Assembly (NCBI GenBank): GCA_963702665.1
Contig: CAVPDP010000019.1
Span: 331,023-395,022 of the forward strand
Direction: 5' to 3'
Length of the DNA: 64,000 nt
Source of the DNA: an uncultured Chloroflexia bacterium
Lineage (GTDB): Bacteria; Chloroflexota; Ktedonobacteria; Ktedonobacterales; JADMIN01
The notes beneath the pieces were generated by a model that saw nothing but the letters and a program-made list of their open reading frames with translations, made no database searches and had not been told where the DNA came from. Position numbers and translations under genes: made by a program. Positions 32,650 to 38,955 of the stretch are shown here, piece after piece (within the stretch, counting starts at the first letter, position 1; every line of letters starts with the position of its first letter).

Positions 32650-33024
32650 ATGGCGGATGAGGGAGCTGGGCGGCCGGGTGAGATTGGCATCGAAGACTTC
32701 CAGCGGGTGGATATTCGTGTTGGGCGTGTGCTGGCGGCTGAGCCACTCAAGGGCGCGCGCAAGCCCGCCTATGCCTTGCGCATCGACTTTGGCGCGGAGA
32801 TCGGCGTTCGGCAGTCGAGCGCGCAAATTACCGAGCATTACCAGCCAGATGCGCTGATTGGGCGGCTCGTGCTGGCGGTGGTCAATTTTCCGCCGCGCCG
32901 CATCGCTGGCTTTCGCTCCGAGGTGCTGACGCTCGGTGTGGCCGATGACGCGGGCGCTGTGGTGCTGATTGACCCCCGATGCCACCGTGCCACTCGGCGC
33001 GCGTTTATTCTGAAAAGGCGATGA
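32650..33024 (+). CDS. tRNA-binding (CsaA / EMAP-fold) protein with a 3'-terminal frameshift
   Basis: IEDFQRVDIRVGRVLAAEPLKGARKPAYALRIDFG...RLVLAVVNFPPRRIAGFRSEVLTLG. Removing one C from the C5 run at 32973-32977 restores the canonical tail DPDATVPLGARLF, with the stop at 33011-33013. Confidence 0.8.
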   Translation: MADEGAGRPGEIGIEDFQRVDIRVGRVLAAEPLKGARKPAYALRIDFGAEIGVRQSSAQITEHYQPDALIGRLVLAVVNFPPRRIAGFRSEVLTLGVADDAGAVVLIDPRCHRATRRAFILKRR

Positions 33025-34208: not shown

Positions 34209-35570
34209 ATGGCGCAAGGTCATGGTGTACTCCAGGGGAACCTGCGAGGGCGGCGACGGCAATTCCTCTACATGGCCGCATCGACCTTCTTGTTAGCGGC
34301 TGTTTTTGTCATGAATGCCTGCGGGGCGAACCCTGCTGTGGTGCGGACTGAGCCAGCGGCAGCGATGCAACCCGACCAACGCGGACCGACGTCAACCAAT
34401 TCAACCCTCCTCTACCCGCGTCATTATGATCGCCAGCGGGTGCAGACACTCGCCGAATATGTAGACCAGATGATCGGCAAGATGTCGCTCAGCGAAGAGC
34501 TTGGGCAGTTGTTCGTCGCTGAATTGACCGGCACTGATATGAACGCCAACAACATCGCCATGATCTCGCAGCTGCATGCTGGCGGCATCATCCTCTACGC
34601 CTTTAGCATGCAAACCGCTCAGCAGACCCAGGCGCTTATCCGCTCCTCGCAGGCGAACGCCAAGATTCCGCTGATTGTGTCCGTTGACGAGGAAGGCGGA
34701 TGCGTGGATCGCCTTACGCAGATCTATGGCAACCATCCTGGCGCGCCAGAGATTGGCGCCACTGGGTCAACCACGTATGCCTATCAGCAGGGCGCGAAGA
34801 TGGCGCAGGATATGACCTCCCTTGGCTTCAACCTTGATCTCGCTCCTGATGTTGACGTGAAGCTTGTCGACGGGCGAGACCTGCTATGCCGCACCTTCGG
34901 GAGCACTCCGGGCACTGTGACCCAACTGGCTGGGGCCTATCTCAACGGCTTGCAGCAGAATGGTGTGGTTGGCACGCTGAAACATTTCCCTGGCCTGGGC
35001 GATGCTCTGGGTGATGCGCACCTGAGCCTTCCAGTTATTAACCGCACCAGGGATCAGATCGAATCGGTGGAACTGGCCCCCTATCGCACGCTGATTAATA
35101 GCGGGCAGGTGCAGATGGTGATGACCACCGATCTGCTGCTGCCCAGTATTGATCCTGTGTTGCCCGCTGAGCTTTCTCCGTCCATCATCACTGGCGTCTT
35201 GCGCAGTGAGCTTGGATTCGATGGCGTGGTGATGACCGACGCGCTCTATATGCAGGGCATCTCGGATAAGTGGGGCATGCCACAGGCCGGCGTCATGGCC
35301 ATCCAGGCAGGCGACGACATGCTACTTGGCCCATGGAGCGCCGGACAGATGAGCGCCATGATCTCAGCGTTGAAAGCGGCGCTCAAAAATGGCAGCATCA
35401 GTAAGGCGCGTATTGATCAGTCCGTCCGGCGGATTTTAACACTGAAGATGCGCATGGGCCTGATTCCATTGCCCGCTAACAGCCAATCGCTGCTGCAGAG
35501 CGTGCCGCCCATCGGCTCGTTGTCACTGCACTTCAGCGGTGCGCCCGTAGCCGACGTGCCCAACCGCTAG
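34209..35570 (+). CDS. glycoside hydrolase family 3 N-terminal-domain protein (beta-N-acetylhexosaminidase, NagZ-like) lipoprotein
   Basis: ATG 34209. Lipobox-like VFVMNACG. Motifs: VDEEGGCVDRL, KHFPGLGDALGDAHLSLPV, VVMTDALYMQGI. Confidence 0.85.
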   Translation: MAQGHGVLQGNLRGRRRQFLYMAASTFLLAAVFVMNACGANPAVVRTEPAAAMQPDQRGPTSTNSTLLYPRHYDRQRVQTLAEYVDQMIGKMSLSEELGQLFVAELTGTDMNANNIAMISQLHAGGIILYAFSMQTAQQTQALIRSSQANAKIPLIVSVDEEGGCVDRLTQIYGNHPGAPEIGATGSTTYAYQQGAKMAQDMTSLGFNLDLAPDVDVKLVDGRDLLCRTFGSTPGTVTQLAGAYLNGLQQNGVVGTLKHFPGLGDALGDAHLSLPVINRTRDQIESVELAPYRTLINSGQVQMVMTTDLLLPSIDPVLPAELSPSIITGVLRSELGFDGVVMTDALYMQGISDKWGMPQAGVMAIQAGDDMLLGPWSAGQMSAMISALKAALKNGSISKARIDQSVRRILTLKMRMGLIPLPANSQSLLQSVPPIGSLSLHFSGAPVADVPNR

Positions 35571-35590: not shown

Positions 35591-35622
35591 CCTCCCCCCG
35601 TCGTTTTCAGGGCGAGGGGAGG
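35591..35622. repeat. GC hairpin between convergent genes (REP-like variant / bidirectional terminator)
   Basis: CCTCCCC (35591-35597) pairs with GGGGAGG (35616-35622). The loop contains ttttc. Confidence 0.5.
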
Positions 35623-35628
35623 GGGACA

Positions 35629-36978
35629 TCACTCCTCGATGATAAAGCGTCGCGGCGCACTGACCCTGCTGACCTCGTGGTGCCGTTCCATCGCCGCCTC
35701 GTAGCCGGGCCAGTCTGTCTGGAGGCCACGTTCGGCCAATATCTCCGCCGCCAGATCCGCTGGGAAACCACGCTCCGCATGCAGCAAGAAAAGCTGCTCG
35801 CCCGAAACGATGCCATCAGCGTCGGGCTGGATGTGTTCCAGCAGGCGAAGTCCAGTCGTCAGCACGCGCGTGAAGCGCTGTTCCTCGTCTGTCAGCAGCG
35901 TCGCGATCTCAGGCGCGCGAAGGCGCTCATCGGTTGAGAACAGGTCGCCCGCGCGCTCCACGAGTGGCGGCACAAGCTCACCCAGAAATGGCTGCTCTAG
36001 CCCCAGGATGCGTCCATGCCGCGCCGCCCGACGAATCAATCGGCGGACGACAGAGCCGCGACCATCCGGGCGCGGAACGACTCCGGCCAGGCCAATATAG
36101 AGCGTCGAACGCACCGCATCGACGATCACGCGTCGCGCGCGTTGCCGCGCTGGTGTATCTTCACCCGCTGGCGCAAGCTCCGCCAAACGTTGCTGCGCGC
36201 CCGCAAACAGGTCGGTCTCGAAGAGCGTCGGGGCTTTCTGGAGAACCGCCGCGATACGCTCTAGCCCCATGCCAGTATCGACGCTACGCAGGGGCAGAGG
36301 TGTATAGCGCCCGTCAGGTTGCCACTCATATTCGATGAAGACCAGATTCCAGAACTCGAGAAAGCGTTCGCACGAGCATCCCGGTCGACACGTAGACTGG
36401 CCACAGCCGAACGCTTCGCCGCGATCTATGAACATCTCCGTGTCGGGGCCGCATGGGCCGGGGCCGTTCATCGTCCAGAGATTATCGTCGCGCCCAAGCG
36501 GCACGATACGCTCCTCTGGCTGGCCAACCCGCCGCCATTCATCGAGCGTCACGTCATCTGGTGGCAGGCCAGACGCTGGATCACCGGCAAAGACAGTCAC
36601 CCAGAGCGCCGACCGATCAACGCCAAACGCCGAGAGCAGTTCAACCGCGTAGCCAATCGCCTCGCGCTTGCCGTAGTCGCCGATAGACCAGTTGCCGAGC
36701 ATGTTGAAGCTGCTCAGCTTGCGCCCATTGACGCCGACAGCATCCGCGTCGTCCATCCGCAGGCAGCGTTGCACTGCGGTCAGCCGTGGCGCGGGTGGTG
36801 GCGTCTGACCGCGCAGCCACGGTAACAGCGGCTGCATGCCCGCGATGACGAAGAGGGTGCCTTCCGCCGTGGCAAGCGGCGCGCCCGCGATCTCCAGATG
36901 GTCATGCGCACGGAAGTACGCGAGATAGCGCCGGGTAATTTCCGGCGACGAGAGTTCCGACTGTTGATGATGCGCCAT
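35629..36978 (-). CDS. alanine--tRNA ligase-related protein: aminoacylation plus tRNA-recognition domains only (450 aa)
   Basis: ATG 36978 follows GGAAGGAG. Motifs: FVIAGMQP, QRCLR, FNMLGNWSIGDY, GPCGPDTEMFIDRG, CSCERFLEFWNLVFIEY, SVDTGMGLERIAAVLQ, RGSVVRRLIRRAARHG, and it ends at ...GYEAAMERHHEVSR. No editing (HxxxH/CxxxH) or C-Ala domain is present, and there is no room for one before the convergent GH3 gene. Confidence 0.8.
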   Translation of the reverse strand: MAHHQQSELSSPEITRRYLAYFRAHDHLEIAGAPLATAEGTLFVIAGMQPLLPWLRGQTPPPAPRLTAVQRCLRMDDADAVGVNGRKLSSFNMLGNWSIGDYGKREAIGYAVELLSAFGVDRSALWVTVFAGDPASGLPPDDVTLDEWRRVGQPEERIVPLGRDDNLWTMNGPGPCGPDTEMFIDRGEAFGCGQSTCRPGCSCERFLEFWNLVFIEYEWQPDGRYTPLPLRSVDTGMGLERIAAVLQKAPTLFETDLFAGAQQRLAELAPAGEDTPARQRARRVIVDAVRSTLYIGLAGVVPRPDGRGSVVRRLIRRAARHGRILGLEQPFLGELVPPLVERAGDLFSTDERLRAPEIATLLTDEEQRFTRVLTTGLRLLEHIQPDADGIVSGEQLFLLHAERGFPADLAAEILAERGLQTDWPGYEAAMERHHEVSRVSAPRRFIIEE

Positions 36979-37140
36979 GCTGCCGCGCTCCTTCCCCAGG
37001 GGTTGACCCCAGGCGCTGAAAATGGGCTGAGTTCGTCTTCCGGTGGACATGCCGGAAAAGCCCGTCAGAAGGAAAGGCGCAGTGTGCGAGGCTGAGGCGC
37101 TCGCTACCAGATGGATAGAGGCTGGTTCATCGCGGCCAGA

Positions 37141-37480
37141 CAAAAACACCCGCCGCGAGCGCCTTGCTCGGGGCGGGGTCGATGATATTCGAGTCCCGTG
37201 GTACCACCCTGCTTGAGAGCATCCCGATATCCACAATTTGGGGACACAGGGGTTGCTCTCCACTCTTTCCGGGCACGGAGCGGATTGCTCGATGCCCTGC
37301 TCTCAGGTAACGGGGAGCGACCGGCGGGTGCTACTGACCACAGTGGGTGTTCGTCCCGCGTCGTGGCCCAGCGTCACATGGCGCCAGGCCTGAGGGTGGC
37401 TTCTCCGCGCGTCTGCCTGCCGGGCTTACACTCTCCCCGGCTCGCTGCTTTGCCGTAGCGCGGATACTCGTCCCTCACGA
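37141..37480 (-). promoter_or_regulatory. T-box riboswitch leader, alanine specifier (GCC)
   Basis: Read on the minus strand. Stem I is GAGGG-ACGAGUA-UCCGCGC ... GCGCGGA-GAAGCCA-CCCUC, with specifier codon GCC at 37398-37400 followed by A. The T-box core is AGCAGGGUGGUACCACGGGA (37194-37213). The terminator is CCCGCC-C-CGAGC-aaggc-GCUCG-C-GGCGGG followed by UGUUUUUGU (37141-37180). A possible promoter is TTGACA (37530-37535), 18-nt spacer, TAGACT (37506-37511). Confidence 0.85.
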
Positions 37481-37549
37481 CGAACTCTCTTCGATTGATG
37501 ATATCAGTCTACGTGATCGCATGCGCTGCTGTCAACCAGCGATCATGCC

Positions 37550-38955
37550 TCATCCGCCGCCGAGGGCGGGCGGCAGATAGATCGCGATCACAGCCAGCAG
37601 CAGCCAGAGCGCCACCAGTTGCACGCCCTCCAGCATCGTCGATTCGCCATCGCGGCTGAGCAGCATGAAGGCGAAGGTGGCCGCGCCGAAGATGATGACG
37701 TTCAGCGGCGAAAAGACCAGATTCAGTGGATGGCCGGTCAGCCAGCCCACCAGCACGAGAATCGGCACCACCAGCAGAATCATCTGAATCGAGGCGCCCG
37801 CCGTGATGGCCATCGTGATATCCATCTTCTTGCGCCGCGCCATGCCGACCGAGCCGTAGAGTTCCACGACGCCCGCCAGCACTGGAATCAAAATGAGGCC
37901 GAGGAAGAATTCATAGTGACTCAGTCCGGCGTTGGTCTCGACCATCTCTTTGACCGAATCGGCGAAGTGCTCCGACATCACGACCACACCGGTCGCGGTA
38001 ACCAGGAGAAGGAGAACCGCGAGCAGCCCACGGACGGCTTTGTGTTCTCCCAGAAACCTTTGCTCCCCTGACTCACCGTGTGTGGCGCGGCGGATCTTAG
38101 TCCGTTGCGCGAGGGCGGAGAGTTTCTTGTCGGCGCTGTTGCGTTCTTCCGCGAAAAGCGCCTGTTGGCTATCGAGTTCTGTATAGGCCTCCTCGATACC
38201 GGAAAGCTCAGTAGTCGGAGGCGCCGGTCGCATCCTTATTGAAGTCACGCGGCCTGAAGACGACGAAGATGAGATAGGCCGCGTAGCTCACCAATAAGAC
38301 CACGGCGATGCAGACGGCGAAGGGCAGATGGCCAAATACCAGTAGCCCCGACTCAGCCGATTCGCCACCCGCGCTGCCCTCTGCTCCAGCAGACGATCCG
38401 ATGACAAATGAGGCCAGCGTCGGTAGCGATAGCCCTGTGACCGCCAGCGCGAACACGGTGCTGTATTCGCCCGCCGCCTCGGGGCTGAAGCGCATCTTGC
38501 CGTTACGCCAGCAGCCGATCAAGGTCGCGATGCCGAGGAACAGCAAGGCATTACGCACGATAACGCCCGCCACCGAGCTGAGTACGATCTCGGAGCCACG
38601 CGAGCCTGCGAACGATGTCAGCACCGAGAGCGCGAGCGCGAGTTCCGCCACGTTGCTGGCGGTGGTATGCAGCAGGCCGCCGAGAAACTGCCCCAGCAGC
38701 TCGGCTAACTCCTCGACGGCGCTTTCGAGAAAGCCCGCCAGCGGAATCAGCGAGAGCGCGGCGCAGAGAAATACGACACCGCCGACGAGCAGGACGCGCT
38801 GCTGGTCGCTCCAGCCCGGCGAGTGGTTCTGCCAGCAGATGCTCCTCGATCCATGCGCTGAAAATCACCAGCGGAATGAACAGCAGGAAGATGTTGATTT
38901 TACGCTTCCAGACGGACCTCTCCAAATCGGCTCTCCCCCGAATTAGCCGCCCCAT
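37550..38955 (-). pseudogene. CaCA-family cation (Ca2+)/H+ exchanger, split into three frames
   Basis: The N-terminus (INIFLLFIPLVIFSAWIEEHLL) shifts at ~38835-38845 into ...LIPLAGFLESAVEELAELLGQFLGGLLHTTASNVAELALALSVL...VRNALLFLGI. It shifts again at ~38215-38250 into the second alpha-repeat half (LGLILIPVLAGVVELYGSV...). Confidence 0.75.

What the first reader, a model, noticed from the sequence alone, without database searches (positions are those of the whole stretch)
35629..37535. Alanine T-box riboswitch controlling a divergent, catalytic-domain-only AlaRS paralog
The minus-strand leader carries all the T-box hallmarks:
- a Stem I specifier loop with AGUA opposite GAA-GCC-A, i.e. an Ala codon (37398-37400);
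- the conserved core AGCAGGGUGGUACCACGG, whose UGGU would pair with the acceptor end 3'-ACCA of a tRNA with discriminator A73;
- a strong terminator followed by a U-run (37141-37180).

The regulated gene encodes only the aminoacylation and tRNA-recognition domains of AlaRS (450 aa, ending at ...GYEAAMERHHEVSR). The convergent GH3 gene starts its 3' end 59 bp later, so no editing or C-Ala domain can follow.

Several normally invariant stretches are altered: GGKHNDLENVG becomes MDDADAVGVNG, and RHHTFFEMLGN becomes RKLSSFNMLGN.

This could be a free-standing, editing-less AlaRS, one half of a split alaS, or a tRNA-Ala-dependent enzyme recruited for another function.
Basis: partly seen in the sequence, partly recalled or inferred. 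Interest (0 to 1): 0.65.

Follow-up and report, generated by a model that had tools for sequence, protein, structure and literature searches.

The report
T-box-controlled mini alanyl-tRNA synthetase
A whole order of soil bacteria (Ktedonobacterales) carries a half-length alanyl-tRNA synthetase that lacks the proofreading and C-terminal tRNA-binding domains, and an RNA switch that senses uncharged alanine tRNA turns it on; a natural enzyme of this shape has so far been described only from a giant virus.

Summary
The core observation is real, with corrections. The gene (35629..36978, minus strand, 449 aa) encodes only the aminoacylation and tRNA-recognition domains of AlaRS. It is not an assembly artefact: at least 120 sequence clusters from Ktedonobacterales are all 441–485 aa long and under purifying selection (dN/dS 0.05–0.28). 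No editing or C-Ala coding sequence occurs in any frame of the window or of 54 orthologous loci.

The leader matches the Rfam T-box model well below its gathering score (39.8 bits against 93). Comparative evidence is nonetheless decisive. All 43 orthologous loci with enough upstream DNA carry the T-box core, the GCC (Ala) specifier is invariant, and Stem I, the antiterminator and the terminator all show compensatory changes.

The real family-specific changes include both G3:U70-reading residues (N303 to R/P/H, D400 to A). The alanine and ATP pocket residues are kept.

Best reading: an editing-less AlaRS induced when tRNA-Ala is uncharged, probably auxiliary to a normal alaS. I could not test whether the host also has a full-length alaS. 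I found no description of the family in the literature I searched.

The parts
37506..37535 (-). Sigma-70-type promoter of the leader: -35 TTGACA (37535-37530), 18-nt spacer, -10 TAGACT (37511-37506). It starts 15 nt after the stop codon of the upstream Na/Ca-exchanger gene (37550).
   Evidence: Coordinates. TTGACA...TAnACT lies at the same position in the orthologous leaders that extend that far (alignment). Promoter function is inferred.
37389..37485 (-). T-box Stem I. It comprises the basal GA/K-turn region (GUGAGGGAC...AGUA), the AG-bulge variant AGCGAG, the distal loop GGGGAGAGUGUAA (the tRNA-elbow platform), and the specifier loop closed by GAGGG/CCCUC.
   Evidence: cmscan alignment to RF00230. 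RNAalifold on 25 distinct orthologous Stem I sequences gives 17 pairs, 12 of them with compensatory changes.
37398..37400 (-). Specifier codon GCC (Ala), in the context GAA-GCC-A before the closing helix.
   Evidence: cmscan places GCC on the codon positions of the model. GCC is invariant in 44/44 leaders while the spacer and the 3' neighbour vary (A 24, C 13, G 4, U 3). The 3' side of the loop is most often 8 nt, as in the Rfam consensus.
37214..37388 (-). Stem II / IIA-B (F-box CCGUUA) / Stem III region. Lineage-specific insertions here account for most of the low Rfam score.
   Evidence: The cmscan alignment shows long insertions relative to the model. Conserved blocks GCGAYGCGGGA-GAAC and UCCGUGCC...AGUGGG appear in the orthologous alignment. 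The sub-structure was not analysed further.
37168..37211 (-). Antiterminator: helix A1, the 7-nt T-box bulge UGGUACC (UGGU at 37206-37203, which pairs with the 3'-NCCA of uncharged tRNA; U pairs with discriminator A73), and helix A2.
   Evidence: the count of structure pairs on 28 leaders: 86.7% of cells paired against <=56% when the partners are slid, 5 of 10 pairs with changes on both sides, 0/500 shuffles reach the covariation score. Core motif present in 47 leaders, with N = U in 44 and C in 3.
37140..37178 (-). Intrinsic terminator: 12-bp G+C-rich hairpin with one conserved internal mismatch, followed by UGUUUUUGU. Its 5' arm overlaps the 3' arms of the antiterminator.
   Evidence: 96.3% of cells paired against <=48% when slid, 6 of 12 pairs with changes on both sides, 0/500 shuffles. 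Column 53 covaries with its partner in both structures. The hairpin forms in the MFE fold of the window sequence.
36976..36995 (-). Ribosome-binding site GGAAGGAG (36995-36988) and start codon ATG (36978-36976).
   Evidence: Sequence. The start agrees with the N-terminus of the 93%-identical orthologue P0001 (449 aa).
35629..36978 (-). Mini-AlaRS gene, 449 aa plus stop: class II aminoacylation domain and tRNA-recognition (helical) domain only. No beta-barrel, editing domain or C-Ala.
   Evidence: Pfam PF01411 positions 1-432/552, E = 1e-104. TIGR00344 alaS scores 367 bits against a cutoff of 457, matching positions 1-428/847. End-to-end match to crystallised AlaRS N-terminal fragments 9jc7, 3hxu and 1riq, E = 1e-71 to 1e-78. 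Family of >=120 clusters, all 441-485 aa. dN/dS 0.05-0.28.
35591..35625 (.). G+C-rich hairpin (CCCCCUCCCC...GGGGGGAGG) in the 58-bp gap between the convergent mini-AlaRS and GH3 genes. Probably a shared, bidirectional terminator.
   Evidence: Sequence. Function inferred, not tested.

Best explanation
The locus is a single-gene unit made of a promoter, an alanine-specific transcription-attenuating T-box leader, and a naturally truncated alanyl-tRNA synthetase.

Proposed mechanism:
1. When tRNA-Ala(GGC) is charged, the leader folds into the terminator and transcription stops about 160 nt before the gene.
2. When uncharged tRNA-Ala accumulates, its anticodon pairs with the GCC specifier in Stem I.
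3. Its free 3'-ACCA end pairs with the UGGU bulge. The antiterminator is stabilised and the gene is transcribed.
4. The product keeps the full alanine and ATP pocket and the tRNA-recognition domain. It most likely activates alanine and charges tRNA-Ala through the acceptor stem alone, without cis-proofreading and without the C-Ala elbow clamp.
5. Its acceptor-stem reading surface is remodelled: both G3:U70 readers are replaced.

The most likely role is an auxiliary AlaRS that restores Ala-tRNA supply when the housekeeping enzyme cannot keep up, through alanine limitation, stress or inhibition. This would be analogous to other T-box-controlled second-copy synthetases.

Shown: the leader anatomy and its conservation, the truncation, purifying selection, and which residues are kept or replaced.
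Inferred: tRNA binding by the leader, aminoacylation activity, and the auxiliary (rather than sole) status.
For: T-box:
- Full-length RF00230 matches in the window and in three independent orthologous contexts, each directly upstream of the gene.
- Core UGGNACCRCG, or a one-base variant, in all 43 orthologous loci with enough upstream DNA and in 0/31 canonical alaS loci.
- GCC invariant in 44/44 leaders.
- Compensatory changes in Stem I (12/17 pairs), the antiterminator and the terminator.

Gene:
- End-to-end homology to AlaRS aminoacylation fragments.
- 65 of 88 canonical-invariant columns in the shared region are kept. These include QRCLR (the motif-2 Arg), AGM, DNxW, GPCGP, E-x-WNLVF and VDTGMGLER, which holds the Asp that binds the alanine amino group (role of Asp235 from PMC12143591).
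- dN/dS 0.05-0.28.

Stand-alone status:
- Three unrelated neighbourhoods, each with a 500-650-nt leader.
- No editing or C-Ala sequence in 367 kb around 55 copies.

Precedents that such a protein can work:
- Tupanvirus mini-AlaRS (461 aa, P/T in place of N/D) charges tRNA-Ala specifically and rescues yeast (PMC10036535).
- E. coli N303A/D400A is only 6-7-fold down (PMC6055181).

Paralog-like divergence:
- Median identity to canonical enzymes is 38.6%, against 47.5% among canonical enzymes of different phyla.
- The family is one isolated cluster, scoring 641 bits and then dropping to 358.
Against: - The Rfam score is far below the gathering threshold (39.8 against 93).
- No tRNA-Ala gene was available to check anticodon, discriminator or G3:U70.
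- In E. coli the single D400A change nearly abolishes charging. This family has Ala there in >=90% of members, plus E92->H/N/Q, Y308->S and T409->A at canonical-invariant positions, so activity on tRNA-Ala is not guaranteed.
- An editing-less AlaRS that keeps Asp235, and keeps Leu at the L219 fidelity site, should make Ser-tRNA-Ala.
- The existence of a full-length alaS in the same genomes, which the 'auxiliary' part requires, was never shown.
Confidence: 0.62

Rival explanations
1. The mini-AlaRS is the only AlaRS of Ktedonobacterales. It would be the housekeeping enzyme, autoregulated by its T-box as alaS is in Firmicutes, with proofreading left to free-standing AlaX-type factors or absent altogether.
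For: - The gene appears order-wide, with at least 120 clusters, and is under purifying selection.
- In one complete genome it lies beside the rplL-rplJ-rplA-rplK-nusG-secE-tuf cluster.
- None of about 240 listed canonical AlaRS hits carried a Ktedonobacter label, whereas several mini-AlaRS hits did.
- T-box control of a sole synthetase gene is the norm in Firmicutes (general knowledge of T-box regulons).
Against: - AlaRS architecture is described as conserved throughout biology (PMC10036535).
- The family's accelerated divergence and its loss of otherwise invariant residues look like a paralog released from constraint.
- My searches were not designed to find the host's canonical enzyme, so its absence from the top-120 lists is weak evidence.
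Confidence: 0.15
2. It is the alpha half of a split AlaRS. A separately encoded editing + C-Ala protein elsewhere in the genome would associate with it to rebuild a complete enzyme, as in Nanoarchaeum equitans.
For: - The protein ends exactly at the junction where short (~596-aa) AlaRS fuse the editing core.
- Adjacent two-gene alaS arrangements cut at this same junction exist in other metagenomic contigs (L170, L171). They may be frameshift artefacts.
- The N. equitans precedent is described in PMC10036535.
Against: - No editing or C-Ala coding sequence lies within the fetched flanks (3-10 kb each side where the contig allows) of 55 copies in at least three different neighbourhoods.
- The N. 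equitans split lies inside the tRNA-recognition domain, not after it.
- A partner gene would be expected to share the T-box or an operon, yet the unit is monocistronic.
Confidence: 0.1
3. It is not a synthetase for translation. It would instead be a recruited AlaRS-like enzyme: an Ala-tRNA-dependent transferase like AcmF, or an alanine-adenylating enzyme with a non-tRNA acceptor.
For: - It has the same two-domain truncated architecture as AcmF (PMC12945691).
- The tRNA acceptor-stem readers are replaced and E92 is changed.
- Ktedonobacteria are rich in secondary metabolism (general knowledge).
Against: - AcmF has lost most ATP and alanine activation residues (N219Q, D232E). This family keeps the corresponding Asn (WNLVF) and Asp (DTGMGLER) in >=90-95% of members.
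- No biosynthetic genes lie nearby in three contexts.
- Induction by uncharged tRNA-Ala is the opposite of what an enzyme that consumes Ala-tRNA needs.
Confidence: 0.08
4. The leader responds to tRNA-Pro rather than tRNA-Ala: the specifier would be read one base later as CCN (all four are Pro codons).
For: The base after GCC varies among A, C, G and U while GCC is fixed. That is the pattern expected of a wobble position. It is a purine in only 28/44 leaders, whereas the base after the specifier is usually a purine.
Against: - In the CCN register no unpaired nucleotide would follow the codon, because CCCUC pairs fully with GAGGG.
- cmscan aligns GCC to the codon positions.
- The common 8-nt loop side GAA-N-GCC-N matches the Rfam consensus geometry.
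- The regulated gene is an AlaRS homologue.
Confidence: 0.03

Closest known systems
Tupanvirus mini-AlaRS (TuAlaRS; Antika et al. 2023, PMC10036535)
   Same: A natural protein of about 450-460 aa with only the aminoacylation and tRNA-recognition domains. The conserved G3:U70-reading Asn and Asp are both replaced: P321/T416 in TuAlaRS, P304/A401 in the window protein, R/P/H and A across the family.
   Different: TuAlaRS is viral and related to its amoebal host's eukaryotic AlaRS. This family is bacterial, restricted as far as I could see to Ktedonobacterales, present in hundreds of metagenomic contigs, and under T-box control. TuAlaRS activity is demonstrated; this family's is not. An independent origin is inferred, not tested.
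T-box leaders of aminoacyl-tRNA synthetase genes (Rfam RF00230), including T-box-controlled second-copy synthetases such as B. subtilis thrZ and tyrZ (general knowledge)
   Same: Stem I with specifier loop and distal platform, F-box, a UGGN bulge in the antiterminator, a competing intrinsic terminator, and a codon matching the amino acid of the regulated synthetase.
   Different: It scores far below the Rfam gathering threshold because of G+C-rich sequence and long insertions. The base after the specifier is not a conserved purine. The AG bulge reads AGCGAG. The regulated gene is a truncated AlaRS rather than a full-length one.
AcmF, the AlaRS-like Ala-tRNA-dependent transferase of ascamycin biosynthesis (Zheng et al. 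2024; review PMC12945691)
   Same: A bacterial AlaRS homologue truncated to the aminoacylation and tRNA-recognition domains, forming its own clade apart from canonical AlaRS.
   Different: AcmF has lost the ATP and alanine activation residues and sits in a biosynthetic cluster. This family keeps them, stands alone, and is induced by uncharged tRNA-Ala.
Engineered N-terminal AlaRS fragments (E. coli AlaRS 1-441, A. aeolicus N453)
   Same: Almost identical boundaries. The window protein aligns end to end with the crystallised fragments 3hxu and 1riq. A. aeolicus N453 charges G3:U70 minihelices efficiently.
   Different: Those are laboratory truncations of full-length enzymes with intact N303/D400. 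This is a natural gene with remodelled readers.
Short (~596-aa) bacterial AlaRS (NCBIfam NF002436 / PRK01584 type)
   Same: A shortened natural AlaRS lacking C-Ala, with the same short motif-2 loop and the MLGNWS motif. The window protein scores 324 bits on positions 5-442 of that model.
   Different: The PRK01584 type keeps an editing core (HxxxH ... CxxxH) fused directly after residue ~450. The mini family stops there.
Split AlaRS of Nanoarchaeum equitans (alpha/beta)
   Same: A separate polypeptide carries the catalytic domain. The alpha subunit alone charges weakly and without G3:U70 specificity.
   Different: The archaeal split lies inside the tRNA-recognition domain and has a known beta partner. 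No partner was found here.

Membership tests
T-box leader (Rfam RF00230) | Score at or above the Rfam gathering threshold | tested here: not met
   39.8 bits against 93 in the window; 31-47 bits in three orthologues. All matches span the full model, positions 1-219.
T-box leader (Rfam RF00230) | Stem I with basal GA/K-turn region, specifier loop (S-turn GAA + codon) and distal AG bulge/loop platform | tested here: met
   cmscan alignment. 12 of 17 Stem I pairs have compensatory changes in 25 orthologues.
T-box leader (Rfam RF00230) | Conserved T-box sequence with a UGGN bulge that pairs with the tRNA 3' end | tested here: met
   AGGGUGGUACCACGG at 37196-37213. Present in 47 leaders, with N = U in 44 and C in 3.
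T-box leader (Rfam RF00230) | Mutually exclusive antiterminator and terminator (or sequestrator) helices | tested here: met
   Antiterminator 86.7% paired and terminator 96.3% paired. Both far exceed the slid and shuffled controls, and a shared column covaries in both.
T-box leader (Rfam RF00230) | Specifier codon matches the amino acid of the regulated gene | tested here: met
   GCC (Ala) is invariant in 44/44 leaders, upstream of an AlaRS homologue.
T-box leader (Rfam RF00230) | Uncharged cognate tRNA promotes readthrough | not testable with these tools
   Needs in vitro transcription with tRNA-Ala(GGC). No host tRNA-Ala gene was in any fetched sequence.
Canonical alanine--tRNA ligase (alaS; TIGR00344) | Class II catalytic core with the alanine and ATP pocket residues | tested here: met
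   QRCLR, AGM, DNxW, GPCGP, ExWNLVF and VDTGMGLER are conserved at >=90-95% in the family. The exception is canonical-invariant E92, replaced by H/N/Q.
Canonical alanine--tRNA ligase (alaS; TIGR00344) | tRNA-recognition domain with the G3:U70 readers Asn303 and Asp400 | tested here: not met
   The domain is present. However, N303 is R 66% / P 11% / H 10% / A 7% / N 5%, and D400 is Ala in >=90% of members. The roles of these residues come from PMC6055181.
Canonical alanine--tRNA ligase (alaS; TIGR00344) | Editing domain (tRNA_SAD, HxxxH/CxxxH) and C-Ala (DHHA1) | tested here: not met
   Pfam finds PF01411 only. tblastn with six C-terminal halves finds nothing in the window or 54 loci (best E = 0.05), while positive controls score 1e-17 to 1e-84.
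Canonical alanine--tRNA ligase (alaS; TIGR00344) | NCBIfam equivalog cutoff | tested here: not met
   366.9 bits against a cutoff of 457.05. NCBI names family members 'alanine--tRNA ligase-related protein'.
Canonical alanine--tRNA ligase (alaS; TIGR00344) | Charges tRNA-Ala with alanine | not testable with these tools
   Requires a biochemical assay or complementation.
Natural mini-AlaRS (TuAlaRS type) | Only aminoacylation + tRNA-recognition domains, as a complete natural gene | tested here: met
   449 aa, family range 441-485 aa, stop codon followed by a convergent gene.
Natural mini-AlaRS (TuAlaRS type) | Common descent with TuAlaRS | not tested
The paper places it with amoebal AlaRS, whereas this family's nearest relatives are bacterial. 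An independent origin is therefore inferred.
AcmF-type Ala-tRNA-dependent transferase | Loss of ATP/alanine activation residues (N219Q, D232E) | tested here: not met
   The corresponding Asn (WNLVF) and Asp (DTGMGLER) are conserved.
AcmF-type Ala-tRNA-dependent transferase | Located in a biosynthetic gene cluster | tested here: not met
   The neighbours in three contexts are housekeeping or unrelated genes: Tex, Na/Ca exchanger and GH3; the ribosomal protein cluster; DNA pol III delta' and enoyl-CoA hydratase.
Split AlaRS (alpha/beta) | A separate gene encoding the editing + C-Ala half | tested here: inconclusive
   Absent from the fetched flanks (3-10 kb each side where the contig allows) of 55 copies. 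The whole genome could not be searched.

The most novel reading that the evidence does not exclude
Ktedonobacterales have no full-length AlaRS at all. An entire free-living bacterial order would then translate alanine codons with a 450-aa enzyme that lacks cis-editing, lacks C-Ala and has replaced both G3:U70-reading residues, with its supply set by an Ala T-box. That would break the rule that AlaRS keeps its four-domain prototype throughout cellular life. It would also raise the question of how Ser-tRNA-Ala is avoided.
Probability: 0.15. Interest if true: 0.85.

Novelty: new variant of a known kind. Interest (0 to 1): 0.58.

Why it matters
AlaRS is the textbook example of a synthetase whose four-domain architecture, G3:U70 recognition and proofreading are conserved across life. 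The loss of AlaRS editing is harmful from bacteria to mammals.

Here is a conserved, selected, cellular family that has dropped editing and C-Ala and rewritten the G3:U70 readers. It is still wired to the charging state of tRNA-Ala. That makes a natural test case for three questions:
- How much of AlaRS is needed to charge tRNA-Ala specifically?
- How do cells tolerate or exploit an editing-less AlaRS, and is it used only under starvation or when the main enzyme is inhibited?
- How else can the acceptor stem be read?

The 2023 mini-AlaRS paper calls the Tupanvirus enzyme the only natural case. A 2022 review of synthetase duplications lists no auxiliary AlaRS. This family would fill that gap.

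It also shows that real T-boxes in G+C-rich Chloroflexota fall well below the Rfam gathering score.

Tried and rejected
1. The genome-contig scan with the whole protein was swamped by the universal VDTGMGLE motif.
2. Exact-match look-ups of the window protein found no record. One search used a start two codons too early, and one search used the correct start.
3. I made four attempts to find the host lineage's full-length alaS:
   - Naming the ten closest full-length representatives.
   - Looking at the contigs of P0126 and P0121.
   - A homology search with P0121, which turned out to be Thermoleophilia/Gaiellales.
   - A homology search with P0131, which turned out to be unclassified Chloroflexota/Dehalococcoidales.
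   None carried a Ktedonobacter label, so the question stays open.
4. A neighbour-joining tree of the family with 148 AlaRS representatives gave no specific sister group, only a long isolated branch.
5. I considered and rejected an origin from the short ~596-aa AlaRS type. The motif-2 loop is shared, but AGMQP and overall identity point to terrabacterial full-length enzymes, and the tree is unresolved.
6. Other 440-500-aa AlaRS-like representatives were checked as possible further mini families. Most cluster with 855-896-aa members, or are followed directly by a gene for the missing half (tRNA_SAD + DHHA1 in L170; an unannotated 386-aa gene in L171), so they are fragments or adjacent splits.
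7. tRNA scans of the window and 42 loci found no tRNA-Ala.
8. A plasmid search found only canonical alaS on large replicons of other phyla.
9. The nearby stand-alone tRNA_bind gene was considered as a trans substitute for C-Ala. It is linked only in the closest relatives.
10. Literature searches for Ktedonobacteria plus AlaRS or aaRS, for AlaRS paralogs, and in the TBDB paper gave nothing on this family.
11. Structure prediction was not run. The sequence-level match to solved fragments is end to end, and the tool returns no coordinates with which to map the changed residues.


Full report
**What is there**

On the minus strand of the window, 15 nt after the stop of an upstream Na/Ca-exchanger gene, lies a sigma-70-type promoter: TTGACA at 37535-37530 and TAGACT at 37511-37506. 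A leader of about 520 nt follows, then a ribosome-binding site (GGAAGGAG) and an ATG at 36978-36976. The open reading frame ends with TGA at 35631-35629, giving 449 aa. A convergent GH3 glycosidase gene ends 58 bp further on, at 35570, with a G+C-rich hairpin in between. My early queries started two codons too soon ("GS-MAHHQQ"). This does not affect the homology results.

**The protein**

- Pfam finds a single domain, tRNA-synt_2c (PF01411), covering profile positions 1-432 of 552 (E = 1e-104).
- The NCBIfam alaS equivalog matches only its first 428 of 847 positions and scores 367 bits, below the 457-bit cutoff.
- The closest solved structures are the crystallised N-terminal aminoacylation fragments of bacterial AlaRS (9jc7, 3hxu, 1riq; 435-465 aa). 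They align end to end (E = 1e-71 to 1e-78).

The natural protein therefore corresponds to the piece that structural biologists cut out of full-length AlaRS. It has the catalytic domain plus the helical tRNA-recognition domain, with no beta-barrel, editing domain or C-Ala.

**Not an artefact**

- A search of 5.8 billion proteins returned at least 120 clusters (58-93% identical), all 441-485 aa long. Those with names are from Ktedonobacterales or Ktedonobacteraceae and are called "alanine--tRNA ligase-related protein" by NCBI.
- The gene stands alone in three unrelated neighbourhoods: window-like synteny in L081, beside the rplL-rplJ-rplA-rplK-nusG-secE-tuf cluster in the complete 5.07-Mb genome CP126532.1, and a third context in L084. 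Each time it is preceded by 500-650 nt of non-coding DNA.
- tblastn with the C-terminal halves of six canonical AlaRS found nothing in any frame of the window plus 54 family loci (367 kb; best E = 0.05). The same queries hit control alaS loci at 1e-17 to 1e-84. This disposes of a frameshifted continuation and of an adjacent split partner.
- Pairwise dN/dS between orthologues is 0.05-0.28, so the gene is under purifying selection.

**The leader is a T-box**

At Rfam's gathering threshold nothing in the window is reported. With an E-value threshold, RF00230 matches 37166-37489 (-) over the whole model at 39.8 bits (gathering score 93), E = 2.7e-7 for that search. The low score comes from G+C-rich sequence and long insertions in the Stem II/III region. 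On its own this would be weak evidence. The comparative evidence is not weak:

1. The three orthologous loci fetched first each give one full-length T-box match in 21 kb, directly upstream of the gene (31-47 bits).
2. A metagenome scan with a family-specific N-terminal alignment brought in 48 more family loci and 32 canonical full-length alaS loci.
3. The core UGGNACCRCG lies 150-320 nt upstream of the gene in every family locus with enough upstream DNA (43 of 43, counting a one-base variant in L101/L104). It is found in none of 31 canonical loci.
4. The specifier context reads GAA-(N)-GCC-N-CCCUC in 44 of 44 leaders. GCC is invariant, while the spacer and the following base vary.
5. RNAalifold on 25 distinct Stem I sequences predicts 17 pairs, 12 with compensatory changes.
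6. On 28 distinct 3' regions the antiterminator is 86.7% paired (at most 56% when partners are slid) and the terminator 96.3% (at most 48%). No shuffle out of 500 reaches the observed covariation. One column (C/U) covaries with its partner in both helices, as expected of a switch.
7. The terminator also forms in the MFE fold of the window sequence.

**Ala or Pro?**

The base after GCC varies freely, so a shifted CCN (Pro) register has to be considered. It is unlikely for four reasons:
- CCCUC pairs fully with GAGGG, which leaves no unpaired base after a CCN codon.
- cmscan places GCC on the codon positions.
- The commonest loop side, GAA-N-GCC-N (8 nt), equals the Rfam consensus geometry.
- The regulated gene is an AlaRS homologue.

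UGGU pairs with an A73 discriminator, which fits tRNA-Ala. It would also fit tRNA-Pro, so it does not discriminate.

**What is and is not unusual in the sequence**

I aligned 121 family members with 18 canonical AlaRS from many phyla.

The loop "AGGKHN" is not invariant. Ordinary AlaRS of Firmicutes, Spirochaetes and CPR bacteria, including full-length 881-aa enzymes, have the same four-residue-shorter R-T----xDxDxVG.

Of 88 canonical-invariant columns in the shared region, 65 are kept in at least 90% of the family. These include:
- the motif-2 arginine (QRCLR);
- AGM, DNxW and GPCGP;
- ExWNLVF;
- VDTGMGLER, whose Asp binds the alanine amino group (PMC12143591).

The consistent, family-specific replacements cluster in two places:
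- In motif 2, strand 2: H87 to K, and E92 to H/N/Q.
- On the acceptor-stem-binding surface: D297 to A, N303 to R/P/H/A, Y308 to S (98%), D400 to A (at least 90%), T401 to E, and T409 to A (100%).

N303 and D400 are the universally conserved readers of the G3:U70 identity pair. In E. coli, D400A is nearly inactive, but N303A/D400A is only 6-7-fold down and accepts G3:C70 (PMC6055181). The family thus carries a natural version of that double change, fixed by selection rather than decaying.

It also keeps Leu at the site where L219M was reported to improve Ser/Ala discrimination. I see no built-in substitute for editing.

**Relationships**

- An exhaustive phmmer search of 1.84 billion representatives found the family as a single 50%-identity cluster (641 bits). 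The score then drops to 358 bits at 45% identity or less, and those hits are mostly 850-900-aa enzymes.
- Median identity of the family to canonical enzymes is 38.6%, against 47.5% among canonical enzymes of different phyla.
- A distance tree gives no specific sister.
- The nearest full-length enzymes belong to Thermoleophilia/Gaiellales and to unclassified Chloroflexota/Dehalococcoidales.
- Other short AlaRS-like representatives turned out to be fragments, or halves of adjacent two-gene alaS arrangements.

This is therefore the only large, consistently truncated family I could see.

**Mechanism proposed**

The unit is a classical transcription-attenuation T-box. Charged tRNA-Ala leaves the terminator to form. 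Uncharged tRNA-Ala(GGC) pairs with GCC and with UGGU, stabilises the antiterminator and lets the gene be transcribed.

T-box regulons contain genes that raise the supply of the charged tRNA. An AlaRS homologue with an intact activation pocket is most simply a tRNA-Ala-charging enzyme. That such a minimal enzyme can work is shown by three precedents:
- the Tupanvirus mini-AlaRS (461 aa, P/T in place of N/D, specific for G3:U70, rescues yeast);
- A. aeolicus N453 (PMC10036535);
- the E. coli double mutant.

I think it most likely acts as an auxiliary enzyme alongside a normal alaS. It would be switched on when Ala-tRNA runs short through alanine limitation, stress or inhibition of the main enzyme. 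The accelerated divergence fits a paralog. A resistance back-up against AlaRS inhibitors is an attractive sub-hypothesis, given the changes next to the adenylate pocket, but nothing tested here bears on it.

**What remains open**

I could not establish whether the host genomes also carry a full-length alaS.

The rivals therefore stand with modest weight:
- A sole AlaRS of the order (about 0.15), which would be remarkable.
- The alpha half of a split enzyme with an unlinked partner (about 0.10).
- A recruited non-translational enzyme of the AcmF type (about 0.08). This is disfavoured because AcmF has lost the activation residues that this family keeps, because there is no biosynthetic context, and because the regulatory logic is opposite.

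No tRNA-Ala gene was available. Three leaders read UGGC instead of UGGU, which I cannot explain.

**Comparison with the literature**

- The 2023 paper on the Tupanvirus enzyme states that it is, to the authors' knowledge, the only natural synthetase consisting of the aminoacylation domain alone that functions normally.
- A 2022 review of synthetase duplications lists no auxiliary AlaRS.
- The AcmF work (2024/2026) describes a truncated AlaRS-like transferase with a disabled activation site.
- I found nothing on this Ktedonobacterial family or its T-box. The library searched is limited to open-access papers and preprints.

**Verdict**

I rate this a new variant of known kinds: a T-box-regulated synthetase gene and a mini-AlaRS. 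It is real and of solid interest to synthetase and riboswitch specialists. Its function is inferred, not shown.

Noticed in passing
L110, L112, L113 (T-box core about 205-210 nt upstream of the gene match): Three orthologous leaders have the T-box bulge UGGC instead of UGGU, with the same GCC specifier. C would pair with a G73 discriminator, whereas tRNA-Ala normally has A73. This could mean an unusual tRNA-Ala in those lineages, or a tolerated mismatch.
   Followed up: partly
window 37148-37170 (terminator stem); columns 52/72 of alignment A3: The terminator hairpin has a conserved internal mismatch (C.C or C.A) at the same position in nearly all leaders. The antiterminator correspondingly has a bulged base between helices A2 and A1.
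   Followed up: no
window 37550-38651 (-): The Na/Ca-exchanger gene upstream of the leader is broken into two overlapping ORFs (37550..38248 and 38208..38651). The 93%-related contig L081 has one 457-aa gene. This is a frameshift, a pseudogene or a sequencing error in the window.
   Followed up: no
window 32650-33024 (+): A stand-alone 124-aa tRNA-binding-domain gene (PF01588, Trbp111/CsaA-like; this family is known to bind the tRNA elbow, as C-Ala does) lies 2.6 kb from the mini-AlaRS. The linkage is seen only in the closest relatives (L081, L088), so it is probably just local synteny.
   Followed up: partly
L170 4001-6654; L171 273-2821: In other metagenomic contigs a ~455-aa tRNA-synt_2c gene is followed on the same strand by a gene for the missing half: 258 bp downstream and carrying tRNA_SAD + DHHA1 in L170, 15 bp downstream in L171. 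Both are cut at the same domain junction where the mini family ends. These are either true two-gene (split) bacterial alaS or assembly frameshifts.
   Followed up: partly
L017, L020, L069, L002 (canonical comparators): A ~593-610-aa AlaRS type (NCBIfam NF002436/PRK01584) in Bacillota, Treponema and CPR bacteria fuses the aminoacylation domain directly to a minimal editing core (HTATHLL ... CGGPH), with no beta-barrel and no C-Ala.
   Followed up: partly
L169 4001-6639: A Thermoleophilia-type alaS in the aspS-mnmA-alaS-ruvX-mltG arrangement is called as a 616-aa piece plus a separate 138-aa DHHA1 piece, and aspS beside it is also split. These look like long-read frameshift errors, and they are a caution about short 'AlaRS' entries in metagenome protein sets.
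   Followed up: no
L084 11357-11458 and 6103-6219: A near-perfect palindrome of about 100 nt directly after the mini-AlaRS stop codon matches several miRNA-precursor models on both strands; these are chance hits to a long hairpin. An orphan 5S rRNA gene lies 3.8 kb upstream of the gene, with no 23S next to it.
   Followed up: no
window 37166-37489 and orthologous leaders: Genuine, covariation-supported T-boxes of this G+C-rich Chloroflexota lineage score only 31-47 bits against an Rfam gathering score of 93. Routine annotation at the gathering threshold will miss them.
   Followed up: yes
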